Source of the DNA: a virus
Taxonomy: Duplodnaviria > Caudoviricetes
Length of the DNA stretch: 64,000 bases
Virus record (IMG/VR): IMGVR_UViG_3300005805_000002
Span: 1-64,000 of that record
Strand: one strand, 5' to 3'
Shown here: positions 4,127 to 62,330 of the stretch, piece by piece
Position numbering within the stretch: the stretch's first letter is position 1
Layout of the letters: the number at the start of each line of letters is the position of its first letter
Notes under the pieces: generated by a model
The model's input: only the letters and a program-made list of their open reading frames with translations
What the model was told of the DNA's origin: nothing
The model's database searches: none
Program-made: the position numbers and the translations under genes

Positions 4127-4513
4127 ATGGCCCTTCGAGTATCCCAGATTCCCAAAGCCGTGGCGGAAGTCATGGCAGGTATATCTTCAGGACTTGAGGA
4201 GGCTCGTAATACCGTAGACGTCGTCCGTCCCCCTCCCAAAGTTGTGTTCTCTGGGGACATGGTAATTGCTCTGAATTCGCTCGAACGAATACAGACCGAA
4301 GTTCGCGGCCCCTCCGTTCGCACAACCGAGTTCGGTCCCCAAGTCACGGTGGATGTCGTGGAGCGGGACGGTGTTTATAGCCATACAGACACTACTACCC
4401 GGCTACCCTACTCTCGTACTGAAAGTGAGTTGGGGAGCGTAGTCACCAAGAGGGCCTACGAAGATCAGGCAATCGGTGTAGTTTTGGAGTACCCGGGACC
4501 GGAACCCAAATAA
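4127..4513 (+). CDS. Hypothetical structural protein; N-terminus paralogous to 5485..6294
   Basis: VSQIPKAVAEV versus LSQLPKAVSEV. Confidence 0.6.
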   Translation: MALRVSQIPKAVAEVMAGISSGLEEARNTVDVVRPPPKVVFSGDMVIALNSLERIQTEVRGPSVRTTEFGPQVTVDVVERDGVYSHTDTTTRLPYSRTESELGSVVTKRAYEDQAIGVVLEYPGPEPK

Positions 4514-4555
4514 GGTTTGATTTAGGTTGCAGACAACGTAAGCTGTTTCTCTACC

Positions 4556-35291: not shown

Positions 35292-35353
35292 TGAAAGGGT
35301 TGCCCGCCCCGCCTAACCGGAATCTTGGTTAAGCGGGGCAAGGCGGGTTTGGT

Positions 35354-37000
35354 TCAGTTATGCACGGCTTCCATCTGAACGGCGTGGAAGTTAACGAACT
35401 TGCCGAAGGGCATACGGTAGTTGTCCCCTCCGTACAGATACCTTTGACAAGTATTGATCCAGAGCGTGGGGATACCGGGATCCGGCGTACGCCACCAGCT
35501 CCACTGCATGTCGGAGACAACGACGATCCAGTCGTACTCGGACCTGCGGTTCTTGGCCCAGTTGAAGGCGGGCATGAGGTCGGTCGCACCGCGTCCGGCC
35601 CAGCCTTGGAACTCGGTGATCGGGAAGTCACAGGACCTGTAGTCGCGTGACGCCCGAACGGAGGTGTCGCAATGCAGCAACGTGACGGTCGACTGCGGGA
35701 ACAGCGACAGCACTTTGCCGAGATGCGTCAGGGCTTGGTTGCAGTCCGCGTCGCTCATCGAGCCGGACGTATCTACAATGAAGAGACCACGGGTCTTGCT
35801 ACGGGCGCGGCGAGCCGGAAGCAGCAGGTCCTTACGATGGCTGTGCCTGCGGGACGGCCTGTCGTATTTCCAGCCTGCGGCGTGTTGGGTCCGGAGAAAC
35901 TTCTCCAGTTCCTTGCGCCAGTTGATCGACGCGGCCAACTCGGGGTCTCCCTCGATGCGCTCCTTGTACTGGGAGATGATATCACCCAGACCAGTCGGGC
36001 TGTAGGTCGAGCTACCGAGCAGCGCTTCGAGGATGAGCTTGGCCTCGTCTTCGCGAAGCGTGACTTCTTCGGGCGCGTCTTCAATGCCGCCGCCGAAGGT
36101 CTCGGTCGGATCGGGCATGTTGGCGAAGGGGTCGTGCTCGGCGTTGGAGTCGGAGCCCGCCTTGGCGGGGTCGCCGCTCTCGGAGTCGGAGTCGGAGTCG
36201 TCAGCGTCCTCGAAGTCCGACCCGTCGAAGGGTTGGCTGTCGTTGCCTGAGCCAGAGGAATCCTCGTCGTCACCGTCCTCGTCCTTGTCGGATTCGCCGG
36301 AGCCAGAGGAGTCATCGTCTGAGTCATCGGAGTCGGAGTCGCCGACCTCGTTCTCGTCCCAGTCGTGGACGCCATCGTCATCCTCATCATCGGAGGAGCC
36401 GGGCTTATCCTTGTTGGATCGAGTCTTGGTCACTTGGGTGCCTTCCTGACCTTCCTCGCCTTCCTCGCAGGGCTCGCCGTCGACAGGTACCTCGTTGGTA
36501 GGAGGCTGAGGCGGCGGAGGCGGGTTGAGCTGCTTGAGCAGGTCGTAGTACTCCTCGGCGCTCTTGTTGTACGGGAGACCCTCGAAGGATTTGAAGCCGA
36601 CGAAGCAGCCGCCCGAGACTTTCGAGTCGATCAGCTCGGCTTGCAGTTTGACGGTGTCGCCTTGGAACGCCTCACGGTAGCCCTTGTAGAGCATACAGTT
36701 GAGCGCGAGATCGGCGGCGATGTTGTAACCCTTGGGGTTTCGTTTGCCACGGCGGTGCTGGTGATTGGACAGCACGTGACCGACCTCGTGCAGCACGATG
36801 GCCTTGGCGGCGGACAAGGACAGCTTGTCGACGAACGAGGGATTGTACGTGAGAGTCCGGCCGTTGGTCGCCATCGTGGACAAGGAGCCGGACGGCTTGA
36901 CCGACCAGCGTGACAGCACGACTGGTATGGCTATGGGTTCGAGCCGAGCGACCCAGTCGAGTGCGACTTTGATCTTTTCAGCAGAGGTAAGTTGAGTCAT
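35354..37000 (-). CDS. Metallopeptidase-vWA protein (DUF2201-like)
   Basis: TMATNG..YNPSFV..VLHEVGH..NIAADLALN; acidic D/S linker; MIDAS 'IVDTSGSMS'. Confidence 0.85.
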   Translation of the reverse strand: MTQLTSAEKIKVALDWVARLEPIAIPVVLSRWSVKPSGSLSTMATNGRTLTYNPSFVDKLSLSAAKAIVLHEVGHVLSNHQHRRGKRNPKGYNIAADLALNCMLYKGYREAFQGDTVKLQAELIDSKVSGGCFVGFKSFEGLPYNKSAEEYYDLLKQLNPPPPPQPPTNEVPVDGEPCEEGEEGQEGTQVTKTRSNKDKPGSSDDEDDDGVHDWDENEVGDSDSDDSDDDSSGSGESDKDEDGDDEDSSGSGNDSQPFDGSDFEDADDSDSDSESGDPAKAGSDSNAEHDPFANMPDPTETFGGGIEDAPEEVTLREDEAKLILEALLGSSTYSPTGLGDIISQYKERIEGDPELAASINWRKELEKFLRTQHAAGWKYDRPSRRHSHRKDLLLPARRARSKTRGLFIVDTSGSMSDADCNQALTHLGKVLSLFPQSTVTLLHCDTSVRASRDYRSCDFPITEFQGWAGRGATDLMPAFNWAKNRRSEYDWIVVVSDMQWSWWRTPDPGIPTLWINTCQRYLYGGDNYRMPFGKFVNFHAVQMEAVHN

Positions 37001-37074
37001 GGTTGGATTGTTCTAACGTGGTAGTTGGGACGATGTGTCAGGGGGCCCCCGCAAGGAGGCCCCCTGATCTTTGG

Positions 37075-38202
37075 TTAGCCGACGATGGCCTTGTAGGCAT
37101 CGAGGCCTGCGAGGCTGGGCAGCTTGGCCCCGGCCACGCGGAACCACCAAGCCACAGCCTCACGGCAGGCGGGGTTCTCGGTAGCGCAGCGGGCGAAGTA
37201 GTCAGCCACAGCCTTGGTGTGCGCCGGATTGACCTCGGGCGAGAGGTTGCGCTTGGCCTGCTCGGGGTCGAGCAAGCGGACAGCGAACGACTCACCGAGT
37301 GCGTACAGGACGCCGATCTGGTCGGCCGGAGGAGTCGGCGCGGAGGCCGGATCCTTGACGACTTTCTCGAAGGTCGGGCACTGCGAGAGGACCTCGCGGT
37401 ACGCGATGTATTCGCGGCCAGCGGTCTGACCGACCAAGCCGAAGACGATGGCGTCTCCGACCTCCGGTGTGAGCGGGGTCTGGGCCAGCACGTCGAGAGC
37501 CGCCGCAGCCCACGTGAAGGTACGAGGGTTAGGACGTTGCTGCTCGATGTACTCGTGTTTGCCGCCGCCGAAGATGTTCGGGCGGAAGCGGGCATAGCCA
37601 ACCAGAGCGGCATCAATGCCGTTGCCGTTAGCCCAGTCGATCCAGTGGTCCAAGGCGCGGGGGCCGTGGGTGTCCACGTAGAAGTGGGCCAGACGGGTAG
37701 CCGCCGCAGTGGTCAGCTCGGTCGTGCCCGTGTCGGTCGTGCCGTTGCCAGCGCAAACAATGTGCGTCAGCTTGGACAGCTTGCGGCCGTTGACGCCACG
37801 GTCGAGCAGGATCTGCAAGGCCACGTTGAGGACGTCGATGGACGTGCGGTCGACCTCGTCGAAGAACAGGATGCACTCATAGTCGTCTCCGTAGAGATCG
37901 GCCCACGGGAGCAACGAGTTGGCGAGGTAGGACAGGACCTTGCGGACCTCGCCATCGATCTCCTGATCCACGGGGTACGGGATGCCGCCGAGATCGGTGG
38001 GCTCCTTGTCCGACAGGCGGACGTCATGGAGCGGCAGGCCGAGATCGGCGGTGAGCGACTTGATCGTAGCGGACTTGGTCCAGCCGACCGGACCCCAGAT
38101 TACGGGGACCAGATCGAGTGTGGGGACCCAGCACACGGCGATGCACTGCTTGATGGTGGACAGCGGAAAAGCCGCTGCGGGGACAGGTTTATGATTTTGC
38201 AT
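37075..38202 (-). CDS. MoxR-like AAA+ ATPase
   Basis: WGPVGWTKS (variant Walker A); ILFFDEVDR (Walker B); LQILLDR; start MQNHKP after the conserved leader. Confidence 0.8.
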   Translation of the reverse strand: MQNHKPVPAAAFPLSTIKQCIAVCWVPTLDLVPVIWGPVGWTKSATIKSLTADLGLPLHDVRLSDKEPTDLGGIPYPVDQEIDGEVRKVLSYLANSLLPWADLYGDDYECILFFDEVDRTSIDVLNVALQILLDRGVNGRKLSKLTHIVCAGNGTTDTGTTELTTAAATRLAHFYVDTHGPRALDHWIDWANGNGIDAALVGYARFRPNIFGGGKHEYIEQQRPNPRTFTWAAAALDVLAQTPLTPEVGDAIVFGLVGQTAGREYIAYREVLSQCPTFEKVVKDPASAPTPPADQIGVLYALGESFAVRLLDPEQAKRNLSPEVNPAHTKAVADYFARCATENPACREAVAWWFRVAGAKLPSLAGLDAYKAIVG

Positions 38203-38285
38203 GGTGGTAGTTGTGTGGTTGTGGTGGTTGGGAAAAGGGGCCCTCCGGCTAACCGGAGATCGGGTTAACCGGAGGGCGGATCGGG

Positions 38286-38504
38286 CTAGAGCGTCGAGCC
38301 CTTGCTCGGGAAGCCGTTGACGTGATTGATGATCCACTGGCGGACCATCCCGTTGAGTTTGTCGAGCGTTTGGCGGGACACCCGAGTGAACTTGTGGTGA
38401 CGCGTCTTCTTGGCGTGGTCCAGCATGAAGGTGCGGACCTTGCTTTCGACGATGAGAGACGCGCTGATGCGCGCTACGACTTGATCGAGTTCGGATTCAG
38501 ACAT
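38286..38504 (-). CDS. Candidate bacterial-type histone-fold protein
   Basis: LIVESKVRTFM / RVSRQTLDKLNGMVRQWI / KGSTL aligns by eye with Bdellovibrio Bd0055 (LVVTSKVKKLI / TSAETIDVLSKAIEQLC / GRKTV). Confidence 0.6.
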   Translation of the reverse strand: MSESELDQVVARISASLIVESKVRTFMLDHAKKTRHHKFTRVSRQTLDKLNGMVRQWIINHVNGFPSKGSTL

Positions 38505-38533
38505 GGTGGTAGTTGTGTGGTTGTGGTTGTGGT

Positions 38534-39466
38534 TTAGGAGACCTGAGCTTTGACGGCTCCGGCCTTGAGCTTGGACAGGATGTCGCCAGCCTGCTTGGCA
38601 ATCTCCGACCGGACCTCGGTGCCCTTGTCGGTCTTCTTGTCGCGGAGGACATTGGACTGAGCGGCTTTGACGAGTCCGGCGACGAGGTCGCGGGCACGGG
38701 TCACGGCAGCGGTGATGGTGCGGTCGTTGTTGACGTTGAGCGCAGGCAGGGCCTCGACCAGTTCTTCGAGGTTGGTGACCATCGTGTCCTCGAAGCGGGC
38801 GATCTTACCGGAGTTGAACTCGGTAAGACTGCTGACGACACGGGACAGCGCGGCCTCCAGCCTCTCGACGACAGTCTTGTGCAGGTCCTTGACCTTGTCC
38901 GCGTATTCCTTGCGGGTGCTGTCCTCGATGGCAGCGCGGGCCTTGGCCGACACGTGGTTGAGGCGGATGTCGTCGGGGTGCGTGATGGCGCTCTGCTTGA
39001 TCTCGAACTTGTAGCGTTCACGCACCTCGTCCTCGGTCGGGAAACCGAGTCGGTCGAAGGCTCCGTTGAGATCGACCCGGGCTTGGTCGCGGAGTTTAGG
39101 GAGGCTCTTGCAGAGCTTGTCGACGGAGTCGTAGAACTCGGCGCGGAAGGCTTCGAGTTTCTGGACAACCGAGTCGAGCTTGGTGTTAACGACTGCGAAC
39201 GAACCCTTGCCGTCCCAGCGGAAGCCCGTGGGGAAGTCAAGGTAGCGGCGAGCCTCGGAGAGCTTCTGCTGCGGAGGCAGGCGGTCCTCCTTGGTCAGTC
39301 GCTGCACGTAGGCAGTGAAACGGTCGGAGGCAGCGTGATCGGCGCTGGCCGCGTTGGCGGCAGCTTGGTCGTCGCGTTTGCTCCACGGGAACAGCGAGCC
39401 CTCGATGCTGACGAGGGTGCAGTCACGGGCGATGTCGAATGCGTTGGTAGTTTTGTATTCAGTCAT
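38534..39466 (-). CDS. DUF3150-like protein
   Basis: Helical protein with 'FPTEDEVRERYKF'; in the usual neighbourhood of the AAA and vWA genes. Confidence 0.6.
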   Translation of the reverse strand: MTEYKTTNAFDIARDCTLVSIEGSLFPWSKRDDQAAANAASADHAASDRFTAYVQRLTKEDRLPPQQKLSEARRYLDFPTGFRWDGKGSFAVVNTKLDSVVQKLEAFRAEFYDSVDKLCKSLPKLRDQARVDLNGAFDRLGFPTEDEVRERYKFEIKQSAITHPDDIRLNHVSAKARAAIEDSTRKEYADKVKDLHKTVVERLEAALSRVVSSLTEFNSGKIARFEDTMVTNLEELVEALPALNVNNDRTITAAVTRARDLVAGLVKAAQSNVLRDKKTDKGTEVRSEIAKQAGDILSKLKAGAVKAQVS

Positions 39467-39516
39467 GGTGGTAGTTGGTTGTGTGGTTGATGGCGAACGC
39501 CGACGTCGTCTTAAAC

Positions 39517-39603
39517 CTACCGATCAAAATATGAGCGGGAGATGAACAAGGCGACGAGCAGCGAGGCCAGAAGGTAGAGAACGAAGTGGGCTTCGGGAAT
39601 CAT
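39517..39603 (-). CDS. 28-aa single-TM micropeptide
   Basis: MIPEAHFVLYLLASLLVALFISRSYFDR. Confidence 0.5.
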   Translation of the reverse strand: MIPEAHFVLYLLASLLVALFISRSYFDR

Positions 39604-39656
39604 GGCGGCAATATAGTTAGACAACTCTCGGAGCAATTCGTTCAAATTATTTTTCG

Positions 39657-40049
39657 TCAGTGTTTCCAAAGGGGCGGTTTGACGCGCAGCTTCACGGGGT
39701 AGCGGTGCTCTCCGGCACGCTCGGCGGGTCGGATGAAACAGAAGTCATACTTCTTTCCATTGTAGACATAGTTGAAGCCGCCGTGCTCGTCGTGTTCTAC
39801 ATTGACGCTGCCGTGGTTGTCGTGCTCGTTCGAGTAGAACTCCAAGACCGAGTACGGTCGCTGAGTCTTCTCATCCTTGTATCCGAGCGGTTCGACGTAG
39901 CCTGCGAAGAAGTAGACGCAGTCTTTGGTCGTGAGTTTGCTGGCGTTGCTCGCAGTCGGATCCACGTCGCAGTTGCGAAGGAAGACCATGAGCTTGTCGT
40001 CGGGATGGGGTATGTTGGTTTTGTATTTCATGGTTATTTCTCGGGCCAA
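39657..40049 (-). CDS. Hypothetical protein
   Basis: ORF within the early cluster. Confidence 0.5.
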   Translation of the reverse strand: MAREITMKYKTNIPHPDDKLMVFLRNCDVDPTASNASKLTTKDCVYFFAGYVEPLGYKDEKTQRPYSVLEFYSNEHDNHGSVNVEHDEHGGFNYVYNGKKYDFCFIRPAERAGEHRYPVKLRVKPPLWKH

Positions 40050-40324
40050 GCCGAGTAGATGGGTTTCAATCCTTTGTCATCGAAGAAGCTGACTACGCGG
40101 CCTCGGTGAGTGAGGCGACTGGCGTGGGCTCCGACTGAACGGGGTCGCACTTCACAGGTAGGGTAGCCCCTATAAAATCCCGTGAACTTGCTTTCCAATA
40201 ACACCTCGATGTTGTGCTCTTTGGCGCTACCGCAGCGGGACTTTATGTATCCCGTGCCGCTATGCTTTCCTTTCGGGTCGTCGAAGTAGACGCGTTGCAG
40301 GACGAATGTGTCTGAGAATTTCAT
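40034..40324 (-). CDS. Hypothetical protein
   Basis: Coupled ORF. Confidence 0.5.
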   Translation of the reverse strand: MKFSDTFVLQRVYFDDPKGKHSGTGYIKSRCGSAKEHNIEVLLESKFTGFYRGYPTCEVRPRSVGAHASRLTHRGRVVSFFDDKGLKPIYSAWPEK

Positions 40325-40662
40325 TAGTGTTTGATCAGATCGTGGAGCGCGTCATCGGCGCTAATGAGAGGGACATTTTCGAGTACGTAGGTGTCGTTGA
40401 CTCTTATGCCCACGAGTAAGCCGTGGGAGCCGTCGAGACACTGGGCTACTGCTCGCATTCCGCAGAGCGTGTCCTCAGCGCCCGAAAGGCCCAGACCGGA
40501 ACCGGAGTTGTAAACGGCGTTGGCTTTGGCGGCGTCTTCATAAGACGCGTAAACGTGCGGGTTCCATACCCAGAAGTTGACGTCTTCGATCTCGATAGCT
40601 CGGTCGAAAGGCTTCTGGTCAGGTGGAACCGGATAGGGAATGTGAATGTGTTGTGAGTTCAT
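40324..40662 (-). CDS. Hypothetical protein
   Basis: Preceded by the palindrome and conserved leader. Confidence 0.6.
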   Translation of the reverse strand: MNSQHIHIPYPVPPDQKPFDRAIEIEDVNFWVWNPHVYASYEDAAKANAVYNSGSGLGLSGAEDTLCGMRAVAQCLDGSHGLLVGIRVNDTYVLENVPLISADDALHDLIKH

Positions 40663-40711
40663 AATGGTAGTTGGTTGTGGTAGTTAACTTATGGGTTAAC
40701 CGGATATCCGG

Positions 40712-41302
40712 TTAAGCAGAGGGGACTTCGCAATACTTCAACAAGAAGGGGAAAAACCATTCCTCGGCTACCCTTTCAAGTTCTCGAAAGGCTTGAAGAG
40801 TCTGGTCCTGCTCAAGCGGTTCTTCATTGTGAAACGTGACGTCAATCCCGTGTATCGGGCGCTCAAGCCACGTGCCCTCGTAGCGGTCAACCATATTGGA
40901 ACGAAGGTAAACGGTGCTCGCGTAGTCGCCCTTGGCATGTTCGGTGTAAATGACCAGTGTCTGCGAGGTGCTGAGGAGGAAATCGAACGAGTGGTCTTTT
41001 CGCCACTCGTTACTGACGCTCAGATGCTTTCTGCTCTCGGTAAGCCACGTCTCCAGAGTCATCCACGCGGGGCGTCGGAAGTGCGGGTCTTTTATGTGCA
41101 GAGCGTGGTAAACCTTTTCAGCTACATCAGGTTTTAAGCGGAGATGTCGAGTATCGAGGTAGAGCTTATACACCGGACCGAATGCGACTCGAACGCGGTA
41201 ATCGCGAGCGCGTTGCATTTTGTCCTTCTGTCGCTGCTCTTCATCTTGTTGCTGTTTCGCGGAGACGAGGCGAGCAAGAGTGGGGTTAGTGGATTCTTTC
41301 AT
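40712..41302 (-). CDS. Hypothetical protein
   Basis: Flanked by two perfect palindromes; its stop lies inside one of them. Confidence 0.6.
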   Translation of the reverse strand: MKESTNPTLARLVSAKQQQDEEQRQKDKMQRARDYRVRVAFGPVYKLYLDTRHLRLKPDVAEKVYHALHIKDPHFRRPAWMTLETWLTESRKHLSVSNEWRKDHSFDFLLSTSQTLVIYTEHAKGDYASTVYLRSNMVDRYEGTWLERPIHGIDVTFHNEEPLEQDQTLQAFRELERVAEEWFFPFLLKYCEVPSA

Positions 41303-41337
41303 AGTGGTAGTTGTGTGGTTGTTAACCGGATATCCGG

Positions 41338-41553
41338 TTAAAGTTCGTAGGAAGCGTCGAGGTTATCGACAAACTCCCGCATGGATGAGGTGAGATCTGC
41401 TTCGGAGATGGCAACGTGCATGGCACGTATACCTTCGCCGTCCGGTGTCTTGTATAAACAGACGACTCGGAAGTTGGTGAGCTGTAGACCAAGGGCCAGC
41501 ATTCTCATGCCGACCCAGTCACAGATGGCGGTGTAAGTGCGTTCGAGGATCAT
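41338..41553 (-). CDS. Hypothetical protein
   Basis: Stop lies inside the palindrome at 41322. Confidence 0.55.
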   Translation of the reverse strand: MILERTYTAICDWVGMRMLALGLQLTNFRVVCLYKTPDGEGIRAMHVAISEADLTSSMREFVDNLDASYEL

Positions 41554-41708
41554 TCTTCGTTTTCGGCGGGGTAGACGACGAGCTTGGCCTGATTGCCTTC
41601 GCCTATGGCGAAATCCAGTCCATACTCATACCAGTTGTAGTCTTGCACGATGATCTCCGACTCGGGGTCGTGCTTCTGTAAGTGATCGATGAGTTCTTTA
41701 ACTTTCAT
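41550..41708 (-). CDS. Small hypothetical protein (52 aa, absent from the ORF track)
   Basis: MKVKELIDHLQKHDPESEIIV..., a common phage N-terminal motif. Confidence 0.6.
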   Translation of the reverse strand: MKVKELIDHLQKHDPESEIIVQDYNWYEYGLDFAIGEGNQAKLVVYPAENEE

Positions 41709-41710
41709 GG

Positions 41711-41956
41711 TCAGTTGATGGTTGCGTGGAAGTAGACGCCGCGTTCATCGTTCCGGTCTTGGAGTTGAATGCTCCGAGCTTTGCCGGAGATGACGCAGCG
41801 GGGTTGCGACTTTCGGTCGCGGGTTGCGGTTGGGACGTTGCAGGACAGACTCTCGACAAAGAGGCAGGCCCCCTTGTAGTGAATCGACAGCACGTTGCGG
41901 CCCCACTTTTGTGATAGAGGCTTGTTGTAGTGGTAGAAGAATGTGAATGGTTTCAT
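41711..41956 (-). CDS. Conserved phage hypothetical protein
   Basis: FFYHYNKP...SIHYKGAC...QPRCVISG. Confidence 0.6.
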   Translation of the reverse strand: MKPFTFFYHYNKPLSQKWGRNVLSIHYKGACLFVESLSCNVPTATRDRKSQPRCVISGKARSIQLQDRNDERGVYFHATIN

Positions 41957-42291
41957 TGGTCTTCGAGTTTGGAATTGATGAGGGCGCGAACGTCCGGTTC
42001 GATCTTGGCGAAAGCCAATCGCAGGCTTTTGGGCACTTGATCGGGTGCTGGTCCGTCGTCGAAGGTGTCAATGCGGTTGCGGGAATACCGGATGCATCCT
42101 TCCTCGAAGGGACCAACGAACGGTGAGCGGCGGGCATCTTCGCGATAAACGCGGAGCAAATACTCCTCGTCGGTCGGCATGACCGCGTATATGTCGCAGT
42201 CAATGTAACCGTCGCAGTTGATGATGGCCCAGTCGAAGCGGATGCCAGTGCCCGGATCGGTGAATGTTGTTCTGTTTTTCATTGCGGTCAT
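41953..42291 (-). CDS. Hypothetical protein
   Basis: Likely start MTAMKNR, with an ATGA overlap. Confidence 0.5.
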   Translation of the reverse strand: MTAMKNRTTFTDPGTGIRFDWAIINCDGYIDCDIYAVMPTDEEYLLRVYREDARRSPFVGPFEEGCIRYSRNRIDTFDDGPAPDQVPKSLRLAFAKIEPDVRALINSKLEDQ

Positions 42292-42524
42292 AGGGCTCCT
42301 CTTTCTCCTCCGGTCGGCGGGTTGATGAGTCCGGCTTCGATCATGCGGACAGCCGTGCGTCCGTAGAATCCCTGCAACGTCCATGCCATTCCCGTATCTA
42401 CGAGGTATTGGAATAGGCGGAGGGTCCCTTCGGTGCTGAGGCTGCCTTGCTCGAAGTCGATGAGTTCGGTGGTGAGATCGAATGATTCGGTGGTGTTCAC
42501 GGGTGGTAAGGAATCGATGTGCAT
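42288..42524 (-). CDS. Conserved phage hypothetical protein (FQYLVDTG.AW.LQG.YGR family)
   Basis: Recognisable motif. Confidence 0.7.
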   Translation of the reverse strand: MHIDSLPPVNTTESFDLTTELIDFEQGSLSTEGTLRLFQYLVDTGMAWTLQGFYGRTAVRMIEAGLINPPTGGERGAL

Positions 42525-42530
42525 GGTGTG

Positions 42531-43007
42531 TTAAGCGAGTGCGCGTTGCAGGCCAGCGTGCAGGACGCCGCCATACCACGCGGGGTTCTTTTCTTTGAGG
42601 ATGGTGAGGGGAGCTTTACCCGCGTCTAACTCGGCGAAGTATTGCTCCGGTGTGTGACTGGCGATCAGCTCTTTGCGGAACTTCGCCAGCGTGAAAGGTC
42701 CCCCGTGTTTGAAACGGGCGACGAACTTGCGGTCGGGTCCGAAGAGCAGGTATTGCCCCTCTCGGAACAGTTGATCTTTGGTGAACTTGGTCATGGTAGT
42801 TGGTGGTTTGGTGACGTAGAGAAGCGGGGGATACTCGTTCCGCTTCTCCAACTTGGTGGTCAGATGAGTGCCCCTGCAATGGGGGCAGGAGTAGACTCCG
42901 TATTGCTTGTTGCGCTTCCGGCGGAAGCGTTCCGCGTGTTCTTCGTAATCGGACCAGCCAAGATTGATTTTGCCTCGGCATCCTCGTTCCAAGCTGGGTG
43001 GTTTCAT
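42531..43007 (-). CDS. Hypothetical protein: Zn-ribbon N-terminal part fused to a second unit starting at ATG 42794
   Basis: YSCPHCRGTHLT in the N-terminal part; internal leader AAACCACCAACTACC-ATG. Confidence 0.55.
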   Translation of the reverse strand: MKPPSLERGCRGKINLGWSDYEEHAERFRRKRNKQYGVYSCPHCRGTHLTTKLEKRNEYPPLLYVTKPPTTMTKFTKDQLFREGQYLLFGPDRKFVARFKHGGPFTLAKFRKELIASHTPEQYFAELDAGKAPLTILKEKNPAWYGGVLHAGLQRALA

Positions 43008-43014
43008 GGATGCC

Positions 43015-43197
43015 TTAACCGAGATTCGGGTTAGGCTCGGCGAGCTTGATGGCCGCGCGGAGTTCCTTGATGGTAATCCACGCGGGGTGTTCGCGGTCTC
43101 CGCTCGGCTCGAACTCGGGCATGATACCTTCGAGATCGGCGAGCGCGCATTTGGCAGCGTCGAGCAGCATTTTGAATGATCGAGTGTGTTTTTTCAT
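43015..43197 (-). CDS. Hypothetical protein
   Basis: The last codons (PNPNLG*) are the palindrome. Confidence 0.55.
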   Translation of the reverse strand: MKKHTRSFKMLLDAAKCALADLEGIMPEFEPSGDREHPAWITIKELRAAIKLAEPNPNLG

Positions 43198-43544
43198 TGG
43201 GTGATGGTTGAGGTTTCGTAAGGGACGCAGTCGTTATCCAAGCCGAACTTGGACAGCATCTCGTCCGAGCAGTATCCGTTGTCATTGGGCGCGCAGTTGG
43301 GATGCCCGTAAATGCAGGAGCAGGGATGCTCGGCGACCATTTGCAGGTAACGCTTTGCGTATGCCTGTCGCTTGCGGTCGCAGATCTCGACGAGATCCTT
43401 CTGGGTAATACGGGTCCCGCATACTGCGGTGTAATCGATGAGCTGGTCGGGGAAGACCGGACTCGTGACACGCTTGCCGTCGAAGAGGACTTCAAACTCC
43501 TCTCCGGCGATGTTGAGGATGATGGGTATGGGATCGATGGTCAT
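43194..43544 (-). CDS. Hypothetical protein
   Basis: Likely start MTIDPIP; C-terminal CSC..C..C. Confidence 0.5.
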   Translation of the reverse strand: MTIDPIPIILNIAGEEFEVLFDGKRVTSPVFPDQLIDYTAVCGTRITQKDLVEICDRKRQAYAKRYLQMVAEHPCSCIYGHPNCAPNDNGYCSDEMLSKFGLDNDCVPYETSTITQ

Positions 43545-43546
43545 GG

Positions 43547-44116
43547 TTAATTCCTTCCGGACATTTGCTTCCACACACCGAGATCGAACTCGGCGAACGT
43601 GAGATGGGGGAACTTGGTCCGCACCATGCGCTTCGCCTTCTCCTCGATCTTGAGGTAGGTCGGCGACAGCTTATTCGGCGTGGTCGCAGGGATGCCCCTC
43701 ATGCGGCACTCCTCGCGGAGATAGCGCAGCATATGGACGTCGAGGACCACGAGTTCCTCGTCCGGTCGGCTATGCAGCAGGAACATCCGCGCGGTCTTGT
43801 GCCCAATCCCGTGGATGGACAGCAGGTCGTGCAAGGTGCAAGTGCGGAGGTTCAAGTTAAGAACCCCGGCCACAGCGGGAGCGTTCTTGTTGTAAGGTGC
43901 GAGATGCCACTCTTCGAGAATCTCGGCAATGCTCATGCCGTGATACGGAGAGCGGAACGCATCGAACAGCGATCCGTTGGTGCGGGCGATGAGTCGATTG
44001 ACCAGTCGCGCAGTGGAGTCGGAGTTGTGTCCGGCCACGGCGATGCAGAAGAGCATGAACTCTTCCAGTTCCTCGTCGCTGCGGTGGTAGTTGGTGACTT
44101 GTGTGGGTTCGATCAT
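43547..44116 (-). CDS. HhH-GPD superfamily DNA glycosylase
   Basis: LLSIHGIGHKTARMFLL (HhH) plus VVLDVHMLR. Confidence 0.8.
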   Translation of the reverse strand: MIEPTQVTNYHRSDEELEEFMLFCIAVAGHNSDSTARLVNRLIARTNGSLFDAFRSPYHGMSIAEILEEWHLAPYNKNAPAVAGVLNLNLRTCTLHDLLSIHGIGHKTARMFLLHSRPDEELVVLDVHMLRYLREECRMRGIPATTPNKLSPTYLKIEEKAKRMVRTKFPHLTFAEFDLGVWKQMSGRN

Positions 44117-44150
44117 GGGTGGTGTGGTAGTTGGTTAACCGGAATTCCGG

Positions 44151-44660
44151 TTAAGCAGCCTCCCGCCAGTCGTGGGGTCGGCTGTAGAATCCGAACGAGG
44201 GATCGTCCTCGCTCGGGGTGAAGGTGGCGGTGAAGGTGACACGCTTGCCGTCCTCGGTGGCCGCGCGGGAGGGTTTGGATCCCCAGACCTTGGCCCCGTC
44301 CGGCAATTGGATGAGGCACTTGATCGAGTCGCCGAACTTGGTCGCAACGAGCTTCTGCTTGAGGATCACGCCCGTGACCTCGGTCCGGCCGAGCGGGGCG
44401 CGGATGCCAGCGGCAACCCGTTTGGCCCGTTCCTCGGCGCGCTCGTCGGCCCACTTCATTTTCTGAAGCGACTCCTTGTGGAGTTTGATAGCGAAGGCTG
44501 CCTGTTTTGGAGTCAACGACTTATACCGGACGAGCTTGACGGCCATGTCCTGTAGGATGTTGACGCCCCATGAGATGCGGTCCCACGCGGGGTGCGACTG
44601 CAATGACGAGTCCGCGCCAAAGTGGAGCGCGGCATTCAACTCGGAGTTATTGGTATCCAT
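44151..44660 (-). CDS. Conserved phage protein with OB-like C-terminus
   Basis: LTPKQ...EVTGVILKQK..KFG..K...RVTFTATF...GFYSRP. Confidence 0.65.
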   Translation of the reverse strand: MDTNNSELNAALHFGADSSLQSHPAWDRISWGVNILQDMAVKLVRYKSLTPKQAAFAIKLHKESLQKMKWADERAEERAKRVAAGIRAPLGRTEVTGVILKQKLVATKFGDSIKCLIQLPDGAKVWGSKPSRAATEDGKRVTFTATFTPSEDDPSFGFYSRPHDWREAA

Positions 44661-44707
44661 AGTGGTAGTTGGTGGTGGTGGTGAAAAAGCCTCTATCACG
44701 TTTCCGG

Positions 44708-44797
44708 TCAGTCGGTTACGAGGCAGATGGCGATCCCGAGCAGGGTGAGTCCGCAGAAGATTTCCAGTGCGGTCTGGAGAATGTCGTAGGGTATCAT
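44708..44797 (-). CDS. 29-aa single-TM micropeptide
   Basis: MIPYDILQTALEIFCGLTLLGIAICLVTD. Confidence 0.5.
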   Translation of the reverse strand: MIPYDILQTALEIFCGLTLLGIAICLVTD

Positions 44798-44907
44798 ACT
44801 GATGCGAGTATATGTAGACGTCTTAAACCTTGGGTTGTTCAATCTTGGGTGCTTGGAATCCTCGGCCCCCGAACGGATGGGACGTAGCGGGAACGAGGTG
44901 ATGGGAC

Positions 44908-45096
44908 CTAACGGATGGACTGCGGGTCGTCGGTCTTGCGGATCTCGACTTTCGTCGTGGGATCCCAGTTCGCCTTGACGCGAAGCCAAAGCTCCGCCTC
45001 GGACGAGGCCGACTCATGCGTCCGGTGGTTCGTTGAGGAGACGCGGCGTTTGTCGCGCGTCACCACGTAGACGAACTCCTTTTCGTAGTTGGGCAT
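44908..45096 (-). CDS. Hypothetical protein
   Basis: Preceded by the palindrome and leader. Confidence 0.6.
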   Translation of the reverse strand: MPNYEKEFVYVVTRDKRRVSSTNHRTHESASSEAELWLRVKANWDPTTKVEIRKTDDPQSIR

Positions 45097-45128
45097 GGTG
45101 GTAGTTGGTCGGGTTGTTGCGGTGGTGG

Positions 45129-45299
45129 TTAACCGGAAATCGGGTTAGCGGAGAGCTTCACGTTGTGAAACTCCTCGAACAGGCGTTGATACTCCTTGGC
45201 CTTCTCGTCGGTATTGATCGGGCCGAGAGCGATGATTGCGTTCAAGTATTGCCGGAAGCTCGGGTCGTCGTAGCTGGGTGGTGCAGGATTGTAAGGCAT
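45129..45299 (-). CDS. Small hypothetical protein (56 aa)
   Basis: MPYNPAPP...ANPISG*; ends in the palindrome. Confidence 0.5.
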   Translation of the reverse strand: MPYNPAPPSYDDPSFRQYLNAIIALGPINTDEKAKEYQRLFEEFHNVKLSANPISG

Positions 45300-45349
45300 A
45301 AGAAAGGGGCGGGGCTTTTTCGGCTAACCCCAAGCCGCGTTGCGGTTGG

Positions 45350-45550
45350 TTAGATGAAGTCGTCGTGCGAGACTTCAGCGGAGGGACGCCATTCGTTGAA
45401 ACGATTGCGGTAGGCGTTGAACGCGTCGAAGCACTGGTCGAGGGCCTTGGGATCGTAGGCCGTGAGAAACTTGCGTATCTCCGGCGACAGGACGATGACC
45501 GAGACGGCCTTGTTCAGTTGTTCGAGCAGCAGTTGTGTTGCGTTTTCCAT
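45350..45550 (-). CDS. Hypothetical protein
   Basis: Preceded by the palindrome and leader. Confidence 0.6.
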   Translation of the reverse strand: MENATQLLLEQLNKAVSVIVLSPEIRKFLTAYDPKALDQCFDAFNAYRNRFNEWRPSAEVSHDDFI

Positions 45551-45647
45551 GCGGTAGTTGGTGTTGTTGTGTTGGTTAACCGGAGATCCGGTTAGGAAAG
45601 GGGCATCCCTTGTAGGCGTGTAATGACGCCTCGTTAGTTGTCAGAGC

Positions 45648-45805
45648 AGACGGCGAGGGGAATCGAACCCCCATCTCCCATAACTCCATCTCGCGGTGAT
45701 CAGCCGAGAGTCATCGTCTGTCTGCGACCGAGATCACGCGTAATCCAGTGCAGGTCGGCGATGAATTCATGGAGGGGCGTGTTACCAGTTGAACACTACG
45801 CCGCC
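45648..45805 (-). ncRNA. tRNA-like RNA with a ~95-nt structured insert replacing the anticodon arm
   Basis: Acceptor GGCGGCG/CGCCGTC; T8A9; D arm GTGT-TCAACTGGTA-ACAC; T arm GGGGG-TTCGATT-CCCCT; no encoded CCA. Confidence 0.7.
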
Positions 45806-45958
45806 ATCGTTGATCGATTTCCCTCTGACCTCTGGGATGAGTGGGGCTTTGTTGCCTGACCCCAAGGCAGGGACCGCTAACGCGTGATCCCTATTACGGA
45901 CAATCTGGTGACCCCGATTGACAGGGGGCCATTCGGAATTCGCGAATGGCGAAAGTGG

Positions 45959-46384
45959 TTAGCCCCAGCAGAGCCCGCCGAAGTCGTCGGGCGAGAATCC
46001 GGCGGGGAGTTCGACTCCCTGCAACAAGAGGATGTTCCGGCAGAAGTCAATATCGTCGCAGGACGCGCAGTAGATGTCGTCCCCATCGACCATGTCGGGG
46101 TGCTTCTTGAGCAAATCCCAGACAGGTCCGCGCAGCTTGCCCCAGCCGAAGGTGAGGAACGAGTCGAGGGAAGCGAGAGCCTCGACGCGGTGGACCTCCT
46201 TGTAGAGCCGATACGAGAGCCGCTCGCAGCGGAGGAAGGCGGACTCGTCGGTCGGAAGTTGACTGGCGAGGTTGGAGTAACGGCCTTGAAGTGCCGTCAG
46301 CCGGGCGTAAGTGCCGGGATGGACTTGAGCCAGACGCTCAAGGATTTCGGGGTTGGTGGTTTTCGGATACAGGCGTGTTCCCAT
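45959..46384 (-). CDS. Hypothetical protein
   Basis: Preceded by the palindrome and leader. Confidence 0.6.
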   Translation of the reverse strand: MGTRLYPKTTNPEILERLAQVHPGTYARLTALQGRYSNLASQLPTDESAFLRCERLSYRLYKEVHRVEALASLDSFLTFGWGKLRGPVWDLLKKHPDMVDGDDIYCASCDDIDFCRNILLLQGVELPAGFSPDDFGGLCWG

Positions 46385-46425
46385 AGGTGTTGGTGTGGTT
46401 GTGGTTAGATTAACCGGAGATCCGG

Positions 46426-46527
46426 TTAACGGAGAGCGAGGAGAAGGCAGGGAGCGACTCCGACAATTGCGGCCAAGATATACAGGGCCAAAAGCCAGAG
46501 GGGCTCGCGTTGGTTTTGATTTTTCAT
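46426..46527 (-). CDS. 33-aa single-TM micropeptide
   Basis: MKNQNQREPLWLLALYILAAIVGVAPCLLLALR; stop lies within the palindrome. Confidence 0.55.
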   Translation of the reverse strand: MKNQNQREPLWLLALYILAAIVGVAPCLLLALR

Positions 46528-46596
46528 GGAGTTGGGGGAGGTGTAAGCCTCGCTTCTACTCCCCGTCACGGGCACGGGGAGCAGGTGCGATTCCAA

Positions 46597-46683
46597 TCAC
46601 CAGTCGAGCAGGCTACGAATGAATCCGTAGATCAGCAGGAATGATCCGATCAGAGTCATGGAGACCAAGATGTCTGGACTCAT
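46597..46683 (-). CDS. 28-aa single-TM micropeptide
   Basis: MSPDILVSMTLIGSFLLIYGFIRSLLDW. Confidence 0.5.
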   Translation of the reverse strand: MSPDILVSMTLIGSFLLIYGFIRSLLDW

Positions 46684-46690
46684 GGCTGCC

Positions 46691-46831
46691 TTACTCGTTG
46701 AAGTCGTCGGCCGAGATCGGGGCCTCGACCCAGACCCAGTGCAGCGGGCTATGGTCGTCCTCGGTGAAGGACGGGGCCACGTTGACACGGGCGGGGACTT
46801 GATCGACGGGTTGGTTGTAGTTGTCTTCCAT
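46691..46831 (-). CDS. 46-aa acidic peptide
   Basis: MEDNYNQPVDQ...; preceded by the palindrome and leader. Confidence 0.55.
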   Translation of the reverse strand: MEDNYNQPVDQVPARVNVAPSFTEDDHSPLHWVWVEAPISADDFNE

Positions 46832-46965
46832 AGTGGTAGTTGGATGGTTGTTATGGTTGTGGTTGTGTTAACCGGAGATCCGGTTAACGAGAGCGGAGTC
46901 ACTCCAACACCTGCACCAGTGGTTGGCAGTCCCACTGGTGAGGTGCTGACGCGAACCCGTTCCGG

Positions 46966-47433
46966 TTAGGACTGGGCCTTGGCCTGCTTGGTCAGCCAAG
47001 CGCGGCGGAGAGCAGAGACCGCGTCCTCGCCAGCCTCGGCCTCGGCGAGAGCGATGAGCTTCTCGATGACGGGGGCGAGCTTTGCGTCCTTCTCTTTCTT
47101 GCTCTTGCTCTCGGACTTCTGGGCACGTTCGCGGAGGCCCAGAGCAACGAACGCATCGGAGGCACGGCGTTCGGACTCGGCCTTGGCCTGCTTCTCGGTC
47201 TTGCCGTCAGCGAGGTAGGCCTCGACCAGCGCGGCTTTGACTTGCGCCTTGAGGTCCTTGATTGCGGCTTTGCGGTCCGCGCCAGAGGCGGCGATCTCGC
47301 TGGAGATGCGCGCCTTGATTGCGTCTTTCAACGCGGCGAGGTTGGAGTTCGCCACGGCGAACGTGACGATGTCGGTGATGACGTCCTCGGTGAAGGAGAG
47401 GACGCTGCGGAGGTTGGCAATGATGTTGCTCAT
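46966..47433 (-). CDS. Ala/Lys-rich helical protein, first gene of the early block
   Basis: Strong C/G third-position codon bias; preceded by the palindrome and leader. Confidence 0.7.
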   Translation of the reverse strand: MSNIIANLRSVLSFTEDVITDIVTFAVANSNLAALKDAIKARISSEIAASGADRKAAIKDLKAQVKAALVEAYLADGKTEKQAKAESERRASDAFVALGLRERAQKSESKSKKEKDAKLAPVIEKLIALAEAEAGEDAVSALRRAWLTKQAKAQS

Positions 47434-47489
47434 AGTGGTAGTTGTGGTTAGTCGCTGGATCACGATGCTTAACCGGAAACTCGGTTAGC

Positions 47490-61866: not shown

Positions 61867-62330
61867 AGTTTTTCTGCGAAGTCCAAAATGAGTAGGGCGT
61901 CTGCCGTCGCTAGCGTCGCGTTGGCCCCGGGAAATTTTCGCTGTGCCAGACTCTTGAGCTTGTTCTTCCACTCCTGCTGGGAGACGCAGGCTGAAGCCGT
62001 GCCGATACCCAGATGTTTTTGCCATTTCTGGGGAGTCACCATTTCCAGAGGAATCTCCAAGGACATTATAACACCGATCAGGAAGCCGTTGTGCCTTCCA
62101 AATTTGAACATGGCGGAACCGGGCTGGGGTCTCCCTATGTAGCCGCCTACTTGTTCTAAGAAAATGACATCACACGAAGTCTTCAACCCGCGCAACAAGG
62201 AGAGGATGTCTCCTTCTGTGTCCGGCATTTTTTGCGCTTGGATCTGGCCCGCTTCGGCTCTCCAAGCAATACCTCCACTAGATCCGGGGTCGATTGCGAC
62301 GATTCGTTTTTTGAGTGTGTCTGAAACCAT
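61863..62330 (-). CDS. RuvC-like Holliday junction resolvase
   Basis: IVAIDPG, FLEQV, FKFG, TPQKWQK, ADALLI. Confidence 0.85.
   Translation of the reverse strand: MVSDTLKKRIVAIDPGSSGGIAWRAEAGQIQAQKMPDTEGDILSLLRGLKTSCDVIFLEQVGGYIGRPQPGSAMFKFGRHNGFLIGVIMSLEIPLEMVTPQKWQKHLGIGTASACVSQQEWKNKLKSLAQRKFPGANATLATADALLILDFAEKL

What the first reader, a model, noticed from the sequence alone, without database searches (positions are those of the whole stretch)
38286..38504. Candidate phage-encoded histone expressed as an early gene
Seen: a 72-aa basic protein with helix1 (ESKVRTFMLDHAKK), an L1 'RVS' motif as in HMfB, a ~25-aa helix2 and an L2 'KGSTL', ending without helix3. It aligns by eye with the Bdellovibrio histone Bd0055. 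It has its own conserved leader. Established: bacterial and phage histone-fold families with truncated alpha3 exist, but their function in infection is essentially untested. Inference: it coats or bridges phage DNA to shield it from nucleases, or remodels the host nucleoid.
Basis: partly seen in the sequence, partly recalled or inferred. Interest (0 to 1): 0.8.

Follow-up and report, generated by a model that had tools for sequence, protein, structure and literature searches.

The report
Minimal two-helix histone gene in phage
An uncultured lake-water phage carries a real, conserved 72-codon gene for a very basic, stripped-down histone-fold protein. It has no third helix, very probably pairs up like a histone and probably binds DNA, and belongs to a large unnamed phage family that nobody has tested at the bench.

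Summary
The ORF at 38286-38504 (minus strand, 72 aa, pI 10.6) is real. It has 7 close and over 400 distant homologue clusters and is under purifying selection (dN/dS 0.14-0.35).

AlphaFold2 (pLDDT 91.5) gives alpha0, alpha1, a 9-residue L1 (with RVS), a 20-residue alpha2 and an L2 (PSKGSTL), then stops. The best structural matches among 48,161 PDB chains are histone folds. The alpha3-truncated histones HTkC, HLp and HBb align at rmsd 1.7-1.9 A over 50-52 residues with 24-27% identity. A family profile finds HTkC as its only significant PDB hit (E 1.8e-4). A homodimer model passes its controls (0.69 vs 0.02) with handshake-type contacts.

The histone-fold reading is therefore supported by prediction. 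DNA binding is inferred, and 'early gene' is unproven.

The family has no Pfam or PHROG match and no alpha3 or RD clamp. It has a 6-residue L1 insertion and lacks the FtF tetramer arginine. It is almost wholly from uncultured phages, with no hit in cultured phages or plasmids and 3 of 401 genomes in one phylum sample.

Its neighbours (DUF3150, MoxR-like ATPase, VWA) are not conserved with it. In relatives it sits by a mini DNA ligase and RusA.

The scan has reported other phage alpha3 histones on other DNA. I class this as a new variant of a known kind.

The parts
38286..38504 (-). 72-aa basic histone-fold gene. Predicted elements: alpha0 3-15, alpha1 20-34, L1 35-43 (R-H-H-K-F-T-R-V-S), alpha2 44-63, L2 64-72 (..P-S-K-G-S-T-L), no alpha3.
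   Evidence: ORF; homologues; dN/dS 0.14-0.35; AF2 pLDDT 91.5; histone-fold matches; profile hit to HTkC; dimer model.
38505..38533 (-). 29-nt AC-rich spacer and leader with no Shine-Dalgarno, between the TAA of the DUF3150 gene and the ATG. It is predicted to be unstructured.
   Evidence: Sequence; exact 26-nt repeat at 38200 and 38502; shared core before at least 11 genes; MFE -1.2 kcal/mol, with 195 of 200 shuffles folding at least as well.
38241..38276 (-). Strong stem-loop 10 nt after the stop codon: 15-bp stem and 8-nt loop. It contains the 20-bp palindrome 38249-38268 and is followed by CCCCUUUUCCC. It probably marks the 3' end of the transcript or a processing or stabilising site.
   Evidence: MFE -31 kcal/mol, z -6.2, 0 of 200 shuffles as good; palindrome family.
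38534..39466 (-). Upstream gene, a DUF3150-family protein of 310 aa. It is probably co-transcribed with the histone-fold gene, but it is not a conserved partner.
   Evidence: Pfam PF11348, E 2.9e-6; absent next to the homologues.
37075..38202 (-). Downstream gene, a MoxR/AAA-type ATPase. It has the same 26-nt leader and is not a conserved partner.
   Evidence: PF00004 and bpMoxR, both weak; phrog_1297 ATPase, E 1.7e-50; absent next to the homologues.
35354..37000 (-). DUF2201 protein (metallopeptidase-like domain plus VWA-like domain), the usual partner of the ATPase. It is listed for context only.
   Evidence: PF13203 E 2.1e-25 and PF09967 E 6e-14.

Best explanation
The gene encodes a minimal histone-fold protein made only of alpha1, L1, alpha2 and L2, with a subfamily-specific N-terminal helix.

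Two chains cross their alpha2 helices antiparallel in the histone 'handshake'. L1 of one chain then lies against L2 of the other. This creates two strongly basic composite sites (R35, H37, K38, R41 with S67, K68, T71) and a central site at the paired alpha1 N-termini (K22, R24).

Through these sites the dimer binds the phosphate backbone of double-stranded DNA without sequence specificity, and bends or coats it, as the alpha3-truncated histones HBb, HLp and HTkC do.

It lacks alpha3, the RD clamp and the FtF tetramer arginine. It is therefore expected to act as a dimer, or through a new dimer-dimer contact, not as an HLp/HTkC-type toroidal tetramer.

In the phage it most likely serves as a phage-made nucleoid-associated protein in DNA metabolism (replication, recombination, repair or condensation). 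It is made from a DUF3150-histone transcript that uses an SD-less AC-rich leader.

Status of each step:
- Shown: a real, conserved, basic gene.
- Predicted: the fold and the dimer.
- Inferred: DNA binding and the role in infection.
For: - Real gene under purifying selection.
- AF2 pLDDT is 91.5 for this protein and 94.8 for a 58-aa family member, with the same helix-loop-long helix-loop layout.
- All-against-all structural search of 48,161 PDB chains, this protein: HTkC 9f2c_A Z 5.1, rmsd 1.8 A, 52 aligned, 27% id; HLp 9qt0_A Z 4.8, 1.9 A, 50 aligned; HBb 8cmp_A Z 4.7, 1.7 A, 50 aligned. The remaining top-7 rows are TAF and H3-type histone folds.
- For the 58-aa member, the first 14 rows are all histone folds.
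- Family profiles find HTkC as the only significant PDB sequence, at E 1.2e-3 and E 1.8e-4 across alpha1 to L2.
- ESM features give a PF00808-bearing cluster at 0.87, which is a lead only.
- Homodimer model: score 0.69, best of 3 controls 0.02. That mark was reached by 20 of 30 proteins solved as pairs of one chain and by 1 of 23 solved as single chains. The runs agree in at least 95% of contacts, and partner pLDDT is at least 82. Contacts are 54:54, 50:57/58/61, alpha1 with alpha2', and residues 34-43 and 67-72 in the interface, which is the handshake pattern.
- Because histone dimers are solved, that pass shows likeness and may come from memory.
- The most conserved columns of the family are exactly L1 and L2 (R35, F39, R41, V42, P66, S67, G69, T71).
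- Family median pI is 10.6 and median net charge is +8.
- In relatives the gene recurs beside DNA-metabolism genes: a roughly 200-aa ATP-dependent ligase-like gene (phrog_114) and a RusA-like gene.
- HLp, HBb and HTkC bind and compact DNA in vitro (PMC12701072; PMC10627809; 10.64898/2025.12.06.692711).
Against: - No experiment exists on any member of the family.
- Z-scores of 4.7-5.6 are low in absolute terms, and the tool warns that Z under 8 can be a common arrangement. Foldseek E-values are 2-3.
- Pfam PF00808 does not match this protein or any of 103 relatives.
- Loss of alpha3 and of the RD clamp removes elements that stabilise L2 in known histones.
- Many histone folds (TAFs, NF-Y, CENP-S/X) work mainly as protein-protein modules, and TAF4/TAF12 score as well as the DNA-binding histones here.
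- Gene neighbourhood is not conserved, so context gives only weak functional hints.
Confidence: 0.6

Rival explanations
1. A histone-fold dimerisation module used for protein-protein interaction, not DNA binding. For example, it could heterodimerise with, titrate or displace a host alpha3 histone or another host factor. The likely hosts (PVC bacteria) belong to groups in which alpha3 histones are reported.
For: - TAF4/TAF12-type folds score as high as the DNA-binding histones.
- Bacterial alpha3 histones occur in Planctomycetota and Chlamydiota (PMC11390915; PMC12701072).
- Cellular relatives of this family lie in Verrucomicrobiota MAGs and in a contig with a PF07638-type ECF sigma factor.
- The N-terminal helix 3-15 is outside the dimer interface and free for a partner.
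Against: - The family is very basic (median net charge +8).
- Its best-conserved residues are the basic and polar L1/L2 residues that contact DNA in known histones.
- No conserved neighbour suggests a fixed protein partner.
- The host is not identified.
Confidence: 0.12
2. Not a histone homologue in function: a small basic helical dimer that only resembles the fold and does something else, such as anti-defence, transcription-factor mimicry or RNA binding.
For: - Low absolute Z and poor Foldseek E-values.
- No Pfam or PHROG family.
- It sits among many small unknown genes typical of phage accessory regions.
Against: - The profile-to-sequence hit to HTkC is the only significant PDB hit, it improves with a more diverse profile (E 1.2e-3 to 1.8e-4), and it spans alpha1 to L2.
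- The RVS and G-x-T-[LI] loop motifs coincide.
- The first 14 structural hits of the minimal member are all histone folds.
Confidence: 0.15
3. An adaptor or substrate of the adjacent DUF3150 / MoxR-like ATPase / VWA module.
For: - It lies between DUF3150 and the ATPase.
- It is 29 nt from the former and shares an identical 26-nt leader with the latter.
Against: - None of 8 IMG/VR relatives (46-62% id) has these neighbours.
- Neither of the two closest relatives with flanking DNA (81% and 88% id) has them.
- A strong hairpin separates it from the ATPase gene.
Confidence: 0.04
4. A sequence-specific regulator that binds the 20-bp palindromes (YTAACC-N8-GGTTAR) that punctuate the 35-48 kb region.
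For: A dimeric DNA binder and 11 dyad-symmetric sites occur in the same region.
Against: - Phages carrying homologues (L002-L009) have no such palindrome arrays.
- Histone folds contact the backbone, not the bases.
- The palindrome after this gene is part of a 15-bp RNA stem.
Confidence: 0.03

Closest known systems
HTkC of Thermococcus kodakarensis (face-to-face alpha3 histone, PDB 9F2C; 10.64898/2025.12.06.692711)
   Same: - It is the only significant PDB sequence match of the family profile (E 1.8e-4, alpha1 to L2).
- It is the best or near-best structural match (Z 5.1-5.5, rmsd 1.8-2.0 A over 52 of 58 residues, 23-27% id).
- It shares the same alpha1 start (L-[VI]-x-x-[SK]-K-V-[KR]-x-F), the RVS in L1 and the G in L2.
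   Different: - HTkC has a short alpha3 and forms a toroidal tetramer that depends on R45. The aligned position here is G64, and it varies in the family.
- The phage family has 6 extra residues in L1 and ends at L2.
HLp of Leptospira perolatii (bacterial FtF alpha3 histone, PDB 9QT0-2; PMC12701072)
   Same: - Fold match: Z 4.8-5.3, rmsd 1.9-2.1 A over 50 of 56 residues.
- HLp contacts DNA through the alpha1 N-terminus, L1 and L2 threonines. These are the elements conserved here.
   Different: - HLp tetramerises through alpha2-C, L2 and alpha3 (R49, N53, R55, T61, F63) and has an R55-D62 clamp. The phage protein has no alpha3 and so has neither.
- There is no direct sequence hit.
HBb / Bd0055 of Bdellovibrio bacteriovorus ('bacterial dimer' alpha3 histone; PDB 8CMP, 8FVX, 9EZZ; PMC10627809, PMC11317129)
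   Same: - Small, basic and dimer-only.
- Fold match: Z 4.7-5.3, rmsd 1.7-2.0 A over 50-51 of 58 residues.
- The predicted oligomeric state here is also a dimer.
   Different: - HBb keeps a short alpha3 and the RD clamp.
- It is not hit by the family profile at E<=10.
- HBb is a chromosomal, highly expressed host protein, whereas this family is almost wholly phage-borne.
Catalogued phage histone-fold proteins: 'phage histones' (Schwab 2024, PMC11390915) and the VTTHFP/VHHHFP/BBVHFP/VFFHFP clusters (Liu 2025, PMC13681535)
   Same: Alpha3-type histone folds encoded by uncultured tailed phages, predicted only and never tested.
   Different: - The described 'phage histones' and VTTHFPs carry a C-terminal tetramerising helix and conserved K10/G17/R30/K49.
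- BBVHFPs end in a helix.
- This family ends at L2, has no conserved Gly in that place, and has the R-x-H-K-F-T-R-V-S loop.
- I could not check whether any of their 289 sequences belong to this family, because the supplements are not held.

Membership tests
Histone-fold superfamily | Layout of alpha1, L1, long alpha2, L2 | tested here: met
   AF2 gives H20-34, loop 35-43, H44-63, tail 64-72 at pLDDT 91.5. The 58-aa member gives H5-19 and H29-49 at pLDDT 94.8. This is a prediction, not an experiment.
Histone-fold superfamily | Structural similarity to solved histone folds | tested here: met
   Six of the top 7 and all of the top 14 of 48,161 chains are histone folds, at rmsd 1.7-2.4 A over 49-58 residues. 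Absolute Z is only 4.5-5.6.
Histone-fold superfamily | Antiparallel 'handshake' dimer with L1-L2' pairing | tested here: met
   Homodimer score 0.69 against a best control of 0.02. Contacts are 54:54, alpha1-alpha2', and 34-43 with 67-72 in the interface. It is a model only and may reflect memory of solved histone dimers.
Histone-fold superfamily | Third helix alpha3 | tested here: not met
   The protein stops at L72, straight after G-S-T-L. Of 240 family members, 135 end at the motif and 91 have one more residue.
Pfam PF00808 (CBFD_NFYB_HMF) | Match to the family HMM | tested here: not met
   No hit at E<=10 for the protein. No hit for any of 103 relatives at E<=1. No hit in the six-frame genome search.
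alpha3-truncated histones (Schwab et al. 2024) | alpha3 reduced to 3-4 residues | tested here: not met
   Only 0-1 residues follow L2 in 226 of 240 members, so this is further truncated than the definition.
alpha3-truncated histones (Schwab et al. 2024) | alpha2 shorter than in nucleosomal histones | tested here: met
   alpha2 is 20-21 residues.
alpha3-truncated histones (Schwab et al. 2024) | Detectable sequence relationship to family members | tested here: met
   The profile hits HTkC at E 1.8e-4 over profile positions 3-56. HBb and HLp are not hit.
alpha3-truncated histones (Schwab et al. 2024) | RD clamp / RxTxxxD motif | tested here: not met
   The K/S-T of L2 is present, but the Asp would lie in the missing alpha3.
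Face-to-face (FtF) histones | Tetramerisation arginine (HTkC R45; HLp R49/N53/R55) | tested here: not met
   In the HMM alignment HTkC R45 falls on G64 of this protein, a variable column of the family.
'Phage histones' / VTTHFP | C-terminal tetramerising helix after the fold | tested here: not met
   It is absent here and in about 94% of the family. A few members, such as P0072 (111 aa), have a C-terminal extension.
Any DNA-binding histone | Binds double-stranded DNA | not testable with these tools
   Only charge (pI 10.6) and conserved basic L1/L2 residues speak for it.

The most novel reading that the evidence does not exclude
This is the founding example of an unrecognised phage-specific histone lineage. 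It would be the smallest histone fold known (about 57 residues: alpha1, L1, alpha2, L2, no alpha3, no RD clamp, enlarged basic L1). It has escaped Pfam and possibly the published phage-histone catalogues. It would organise phage or host DNA in phages of PVC bacteria through a dimer or a new oligomer, with a DNA-binding geometry different from HBb, HLp and HTkC.
Probability: 0.3. Interest if true: 0.65.

Novelty: new variant of a known kind. Interest (0 to 1): 0.5.

Why it matters
Histones in bacteria and their viruses are a young field. Only HBb, HLp and HTkC of the short alpha3 type have been studied, and no phage histone-fold protein has been tested.

This family shows how far the fold can be pared down: two helices and two loops, 57 residues in its shortest members. 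It is abundant in uncultured phages yet invisible to standard annotation.

If it binds DNA, it would give a minimal model for histone-DNA recognition. It would also be a first handle on what phage 'chromatin' proteins do during infection. If it does not bind DNA, it would be a case of a histone fold re-used by a virus for another purpose.

Tried and rejected
- Pfam, PHROG and single-sequence PDB searches of the protein gave nothing meaningful. The Arc protein hit (7r24, E 0.008) is a chance helix match.
- Foldseek gave no E<=0.001 match against PDB or BFVD, although histones lead the PDB list.
- tblastn against 50,697 cultured or deposited phage records gave no match, with this protein and with the 58-aa member P0098.
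- tblastn against 72,556 plasmids gave no match.
- The search for related loci with the wide alignments failed for lack of a conserved stretch.
- No handles were available for known histone genomes, so no profile-profile (hhalign) test against an alpha3-histone alignment could be run.
- A functional link to DUF3150/MoxR/VWA is rejected because synteny is not conserved.
- A link to the TTAACCGG palindromes is rejected because they are absent from other phages carrying the gene.
- Expression: no RNA holder is listed among public runs for 37000-40100, so timing could not be examined.
- The supplementary sequence tables of Liu et al. 2025 are not held. The Schwab supplement gives only logo positions. 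Overlap with their catalogues could therefore not be settled.
- The 4081-aa ORF is not recognisably an N4-type virion RNA polymerase in Pfam or PHROGs, so the N4-like early-promoter idea for the palindromes was dropped.

Full report
**Where the window lies.** The window is bases 1-64000 of a 74,189-bp IMG/VR virus record. Its source looks like lake-water metagenomes. The 'direct terminal repeat' is only 99 bp, so it is more likely an assembly overlap of a circular or permuted genome than a true DTR. Plus-strand genes from about 64.3 kb, through the ends, to 31.4 kb include the large structural genes and a 4081-aa ORF. A minus-strand block runs from 64.0 kb down to 31.6 kb. That block begins with replication genes: an SNF2-type helicase fused to DUF2800, a family A DNA polymerase, and a DUF5906 primase-helicase. 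It continues with many small genes.

**The observation.** The ORF at 38286-38504 (minus strand) encodes 72 residues. It has 12 K+R against 6 D+E, and pI 10.6. It is a real gene:
- Seven homologue clusters at 57-94% identity were found in other metagenomes.
- An exhaustive phmmer search gave 157 representatives at E<=1e-3.
- A profile search gave 447 clusters.
- dN/dS against two natural relatives (88% and 81% identical) is 0.14 and 0.34, with dS about 0.8.
- There is one copy in the genome.

**Fold.** AlphaFold2 with a 103-sequence alignment gives pLDDT 91.5. The elements are helix 3-15, helix 20-34, a 9-residue loop ending in R41-V42-S43, helix 44-63, and the tail F-P-S-K-G-S-T-L, after which the protein stops. 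A 58-aa member (P0098) folded with an independent 105-sequence alignment gives the same core at pLDDT 94.8.
- Foldseek E-values are poor (2-3), as is usual for proteins this short. Even so, its list is led by histones.
- The all-against-all VIA-align search of 48,161 PDB representatives puts HTkC first (Z 5.1, rmsd 1.8 A, 52 of 58 residues, 27% identity). HLp follows (Z 4.8, 1.9 A, 50 of 56), then HBb/Bd0055 (Z 4.7, 1.7 A, 50 of 58). TAF and H3-type folds lie between them.
- For the 58-aa member, the first 14 rows are all histone folds.
- These Z values are low in absolute terms and would not be convincing alone.

**Sequence support.** Sequence evidence backs the structural matches. The family profile finds HTkC as its only significant hit among 177,635 PDB sequences, at E 1.2e-3. 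With a more diverse profile of minimal members the hit improves to E 1.8e-4 and spans alpha1 to L2. That alignment shows two things:
- The phage family has six extra residues in L1, the conserved R-x-H-K-F-T.
- HTkC R45, which its authors report as critical for tetramer formation (10.64898/2025.12.06.692711), falls on G64 here, a variable column.

ESM-Atlas features mostly find unnamed viral clusters. One cluster in which 17% of members carry PF00808 scores 0.87, which is a lead only.

**Dimer.** A two-copy model scored 0.69 against a best control of 0.02. That mark was reached by 20 of 30 proteins solved as pairs of one chain and by 1 of 23 solved as single chains. The runs agree in at least 95% of contacts, and pLDDT is at least 82. 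The contacts are those of the histone handshake:
- 54:54 and 50:57/58/61, the antiparallel alpha2 crossing;
- alpha1 residues 23-31 on alpha2' residues 54-62;
- 17-19 with 17-19, the paired alpha1 N-termini;
- both loops (34-43 and 67-72) in the interface.

Because histone dimers are solved, the pass shows likeness and not proof.

**What distinguishes the family.** Its consensus is L-I-N-x3-V-R-x-F-L-L-x2-A-x3-R-x-H-K-F-T-R-V-S-x2-T-L-x3-E-x3-R-x6-V-x3-P-S-K-G-K-T-[LI].
- The near-invariant columns are in L1 and L2.
- Of 240 members, 135 end exactly at the L2 motif and 91 have one more residue. The whole family therefore lacks alpha3, and with it the Asp of the RD clamp that stabilises L2 in HMfB, HBb and HLp (PMC12701072).
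- No member matches any Pfam family. This protein matches no PHROG.
- Median pI is 10.6 and median net charge is +8.
- Rare variants exist: one with a C-terminal helical extension (P0072), one with an internal duplication (P0044), and several with long N-terminal extensions that may be over-called starts.

**Distribution.**
- Eight IMG/VR contigs of 18-69 kb carry relatives.
- So do large phage-like contigs of 80-236 kb.
- A 672-kb bacterial contig carries one in a cluster of small, mostly unannotated genes. That contig has a PF07638-type ECF sigma factor and Pkinase-TPR genes.
- Among 185,579 species genomes, one exact pattern (TR[AH]HKFTRV) found only two loci, both in Verrucomicrobiota MAGs on short contigs.
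- A profile search of 401 genomes of that phylum found 3, two of them the seed genomes.
- Nothing was found in cultured or deposited phages or in plasmids.

The family is thus essentially phage-borne. The hosts are probably PVC bacteria, which is inference.

**Context.** In the window the gene lies between a DUF3150 gene and a MoxR-like ATPase plus DUF2201/VWA pair. This neighbourhood is not conserved in the eight IMG/VR relatives. It is not conserved in the 81%- and 88%-identical relatives either. In one clade the gene is followed by a 220-aa unknown gene, a 201-aa ATP-dependent-ligase-like gene (phrog_114) and a RusA-like gene. Ligase-like genes also lie 1-2 genes away in two unrelated contigs. 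That is weak but repeated guilt-by-association with DNA metabolism.

**Expression signals.**
- The gene starts 29 nt after the DUF3150 stop. This spacer is the AC-rich leader and contains no palindrome.
- The leader is identical over 26 nt to the one before the ATPase gene. Its core precedes at least 11 genes between 37.0 and 47.4 kb, but not the replication or structural genes.
- It is predicted to be unstructured. No Shine-Dalgarno is evident anywhere in the genome.
- Ten nucleotides after the stop lies a 15-bp stem-loop of -31 kcal/mol (z -6.2). It embeds one of the 11 YTAACC-N8-GGTTAR palindromes, which are confined to 35.3-47.5 kb.
- The simplest reading is a DUF3150-histone transcript that ends or is processed at this hairpin.

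Nothing shows that the gene is early. It is distal to the replication genes, and no RNA data exist.

**Comparison and novelty.** Alpha3-truncated histones are established (PMC11390915). Phage histone-fold proteins have been catalogued in silico (PMC11390915; PMC13681535), and none has been tested. This scan has also reported other phage alpha3 histones on other DNA. One was an alpha3-less gene on an ICE, and I could not compare it with this family.

This protein works like those histones by every prediction made here. It fails several of their defining features: no alpha3 at all, no RD clamp, no FtF arginine, no C-terminal helix and no PF00808 match. It also has its own L1 insertion. I therefore class it as a new variant of a known kind and rate it of moderate interest. 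I could not rule out that some members are already in the 2025 catalogue.

Noticed in passing
window 35313-47488 (11 sites: 35313, 38249, 40696, 41322, 43015, 44135, 45129, 45576, 46410, 46868, 47469): 20-bp palindromes of the form YTAACC-N8-GGTTAR occur only in this part of the whole 74-kb genome. Most lie 7-45 nt upstream of a gene's AC-rich leader. The copy after the histone gene is embedded in a 15-bp RNA stem (-31 kcal/mol). They could be terminators, RNase processing sites or stabilising hairpins, not promoters. This is already the subject of another finding.
   Followed up: partly
window 37000-47433, minus strand, just upstream of ATGs: A class-specific AC-rich leader with no Shine-Dalgarno, ending CAACTACCAC[CT]-ATG, precedes at least 11 genes. 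It is absent from the replication and structural genes. No Shine-Dalgarno motif is evident anywhere in the genome.
   Followed up: partly
G000 ends (window 1-99 and genome 74091-74189): The record's 'direct terminal repeat' is exactly 99 bp. It looks like an assembler k-mer overlap of a circular or permuted genome, not a biological DTR.
   Followed up: partly
window 17023-29268 (+): A 4081-aa ORF has only DUF7178, phrog_3170 and phrog_3842 matches over short stretches. It is not recognisable as an N4-type virion RNA polymerase.
   Followed up: partly
window 35354-39466 (-): A module of DUF3150, a MoxR-like AAA ATPase, and DUF2201 (metallopeptidase-like plus VWA) sits in a phage. The VWA protein has a roughly 130-residue D/E/S-rich insert. 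PHROG labels its family (phrog_1314) 'HNH endonuclease', which looks like a mis-annotation.
   Followed up: no
window 59401-62025 (-): An SNF2/DEAD-type helicase is fused to a DUF2800 domain at the head of the replication block.
   Followed up: no
L002-L007, L016 and L014: A conserved trio in related phages: the histone-fold gene, a 220-aa unknown gene, and a 201-aa ATP-dependent DNA-ligase-like protein with the adenylation domain only. A RusA-like gene is often nearby. The window phage lacks the 220-aa and ligase genes.
   Followed up: partly
L008 6001-6180 and 9327-9515; proteins P0044, P0072: One phage contig carries two diverged copies of the family. P0044 (118 aa) is a tandem duplication that keeps L1 in the first repeat and L2 in the second, which is the pair that would meet in a handshake. 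P0072 (111 aa) has a C-terminal helical extension reminiscent of the published 'phage histones'.
   Followed up: no
L015 1-80 and L014 about 4500-4572: In the 88%- and 81%-identical relatives the histone-fold gene has its own upstream palindrome: TATCCGGAAATCCGGATA in L015 and TCCGAAATTTCGGA in L014. L015 also has an AC-rich leader ending CAACTACCACC-ATG. The gene therefore moves as an independent cassette.
   Followed up: partly
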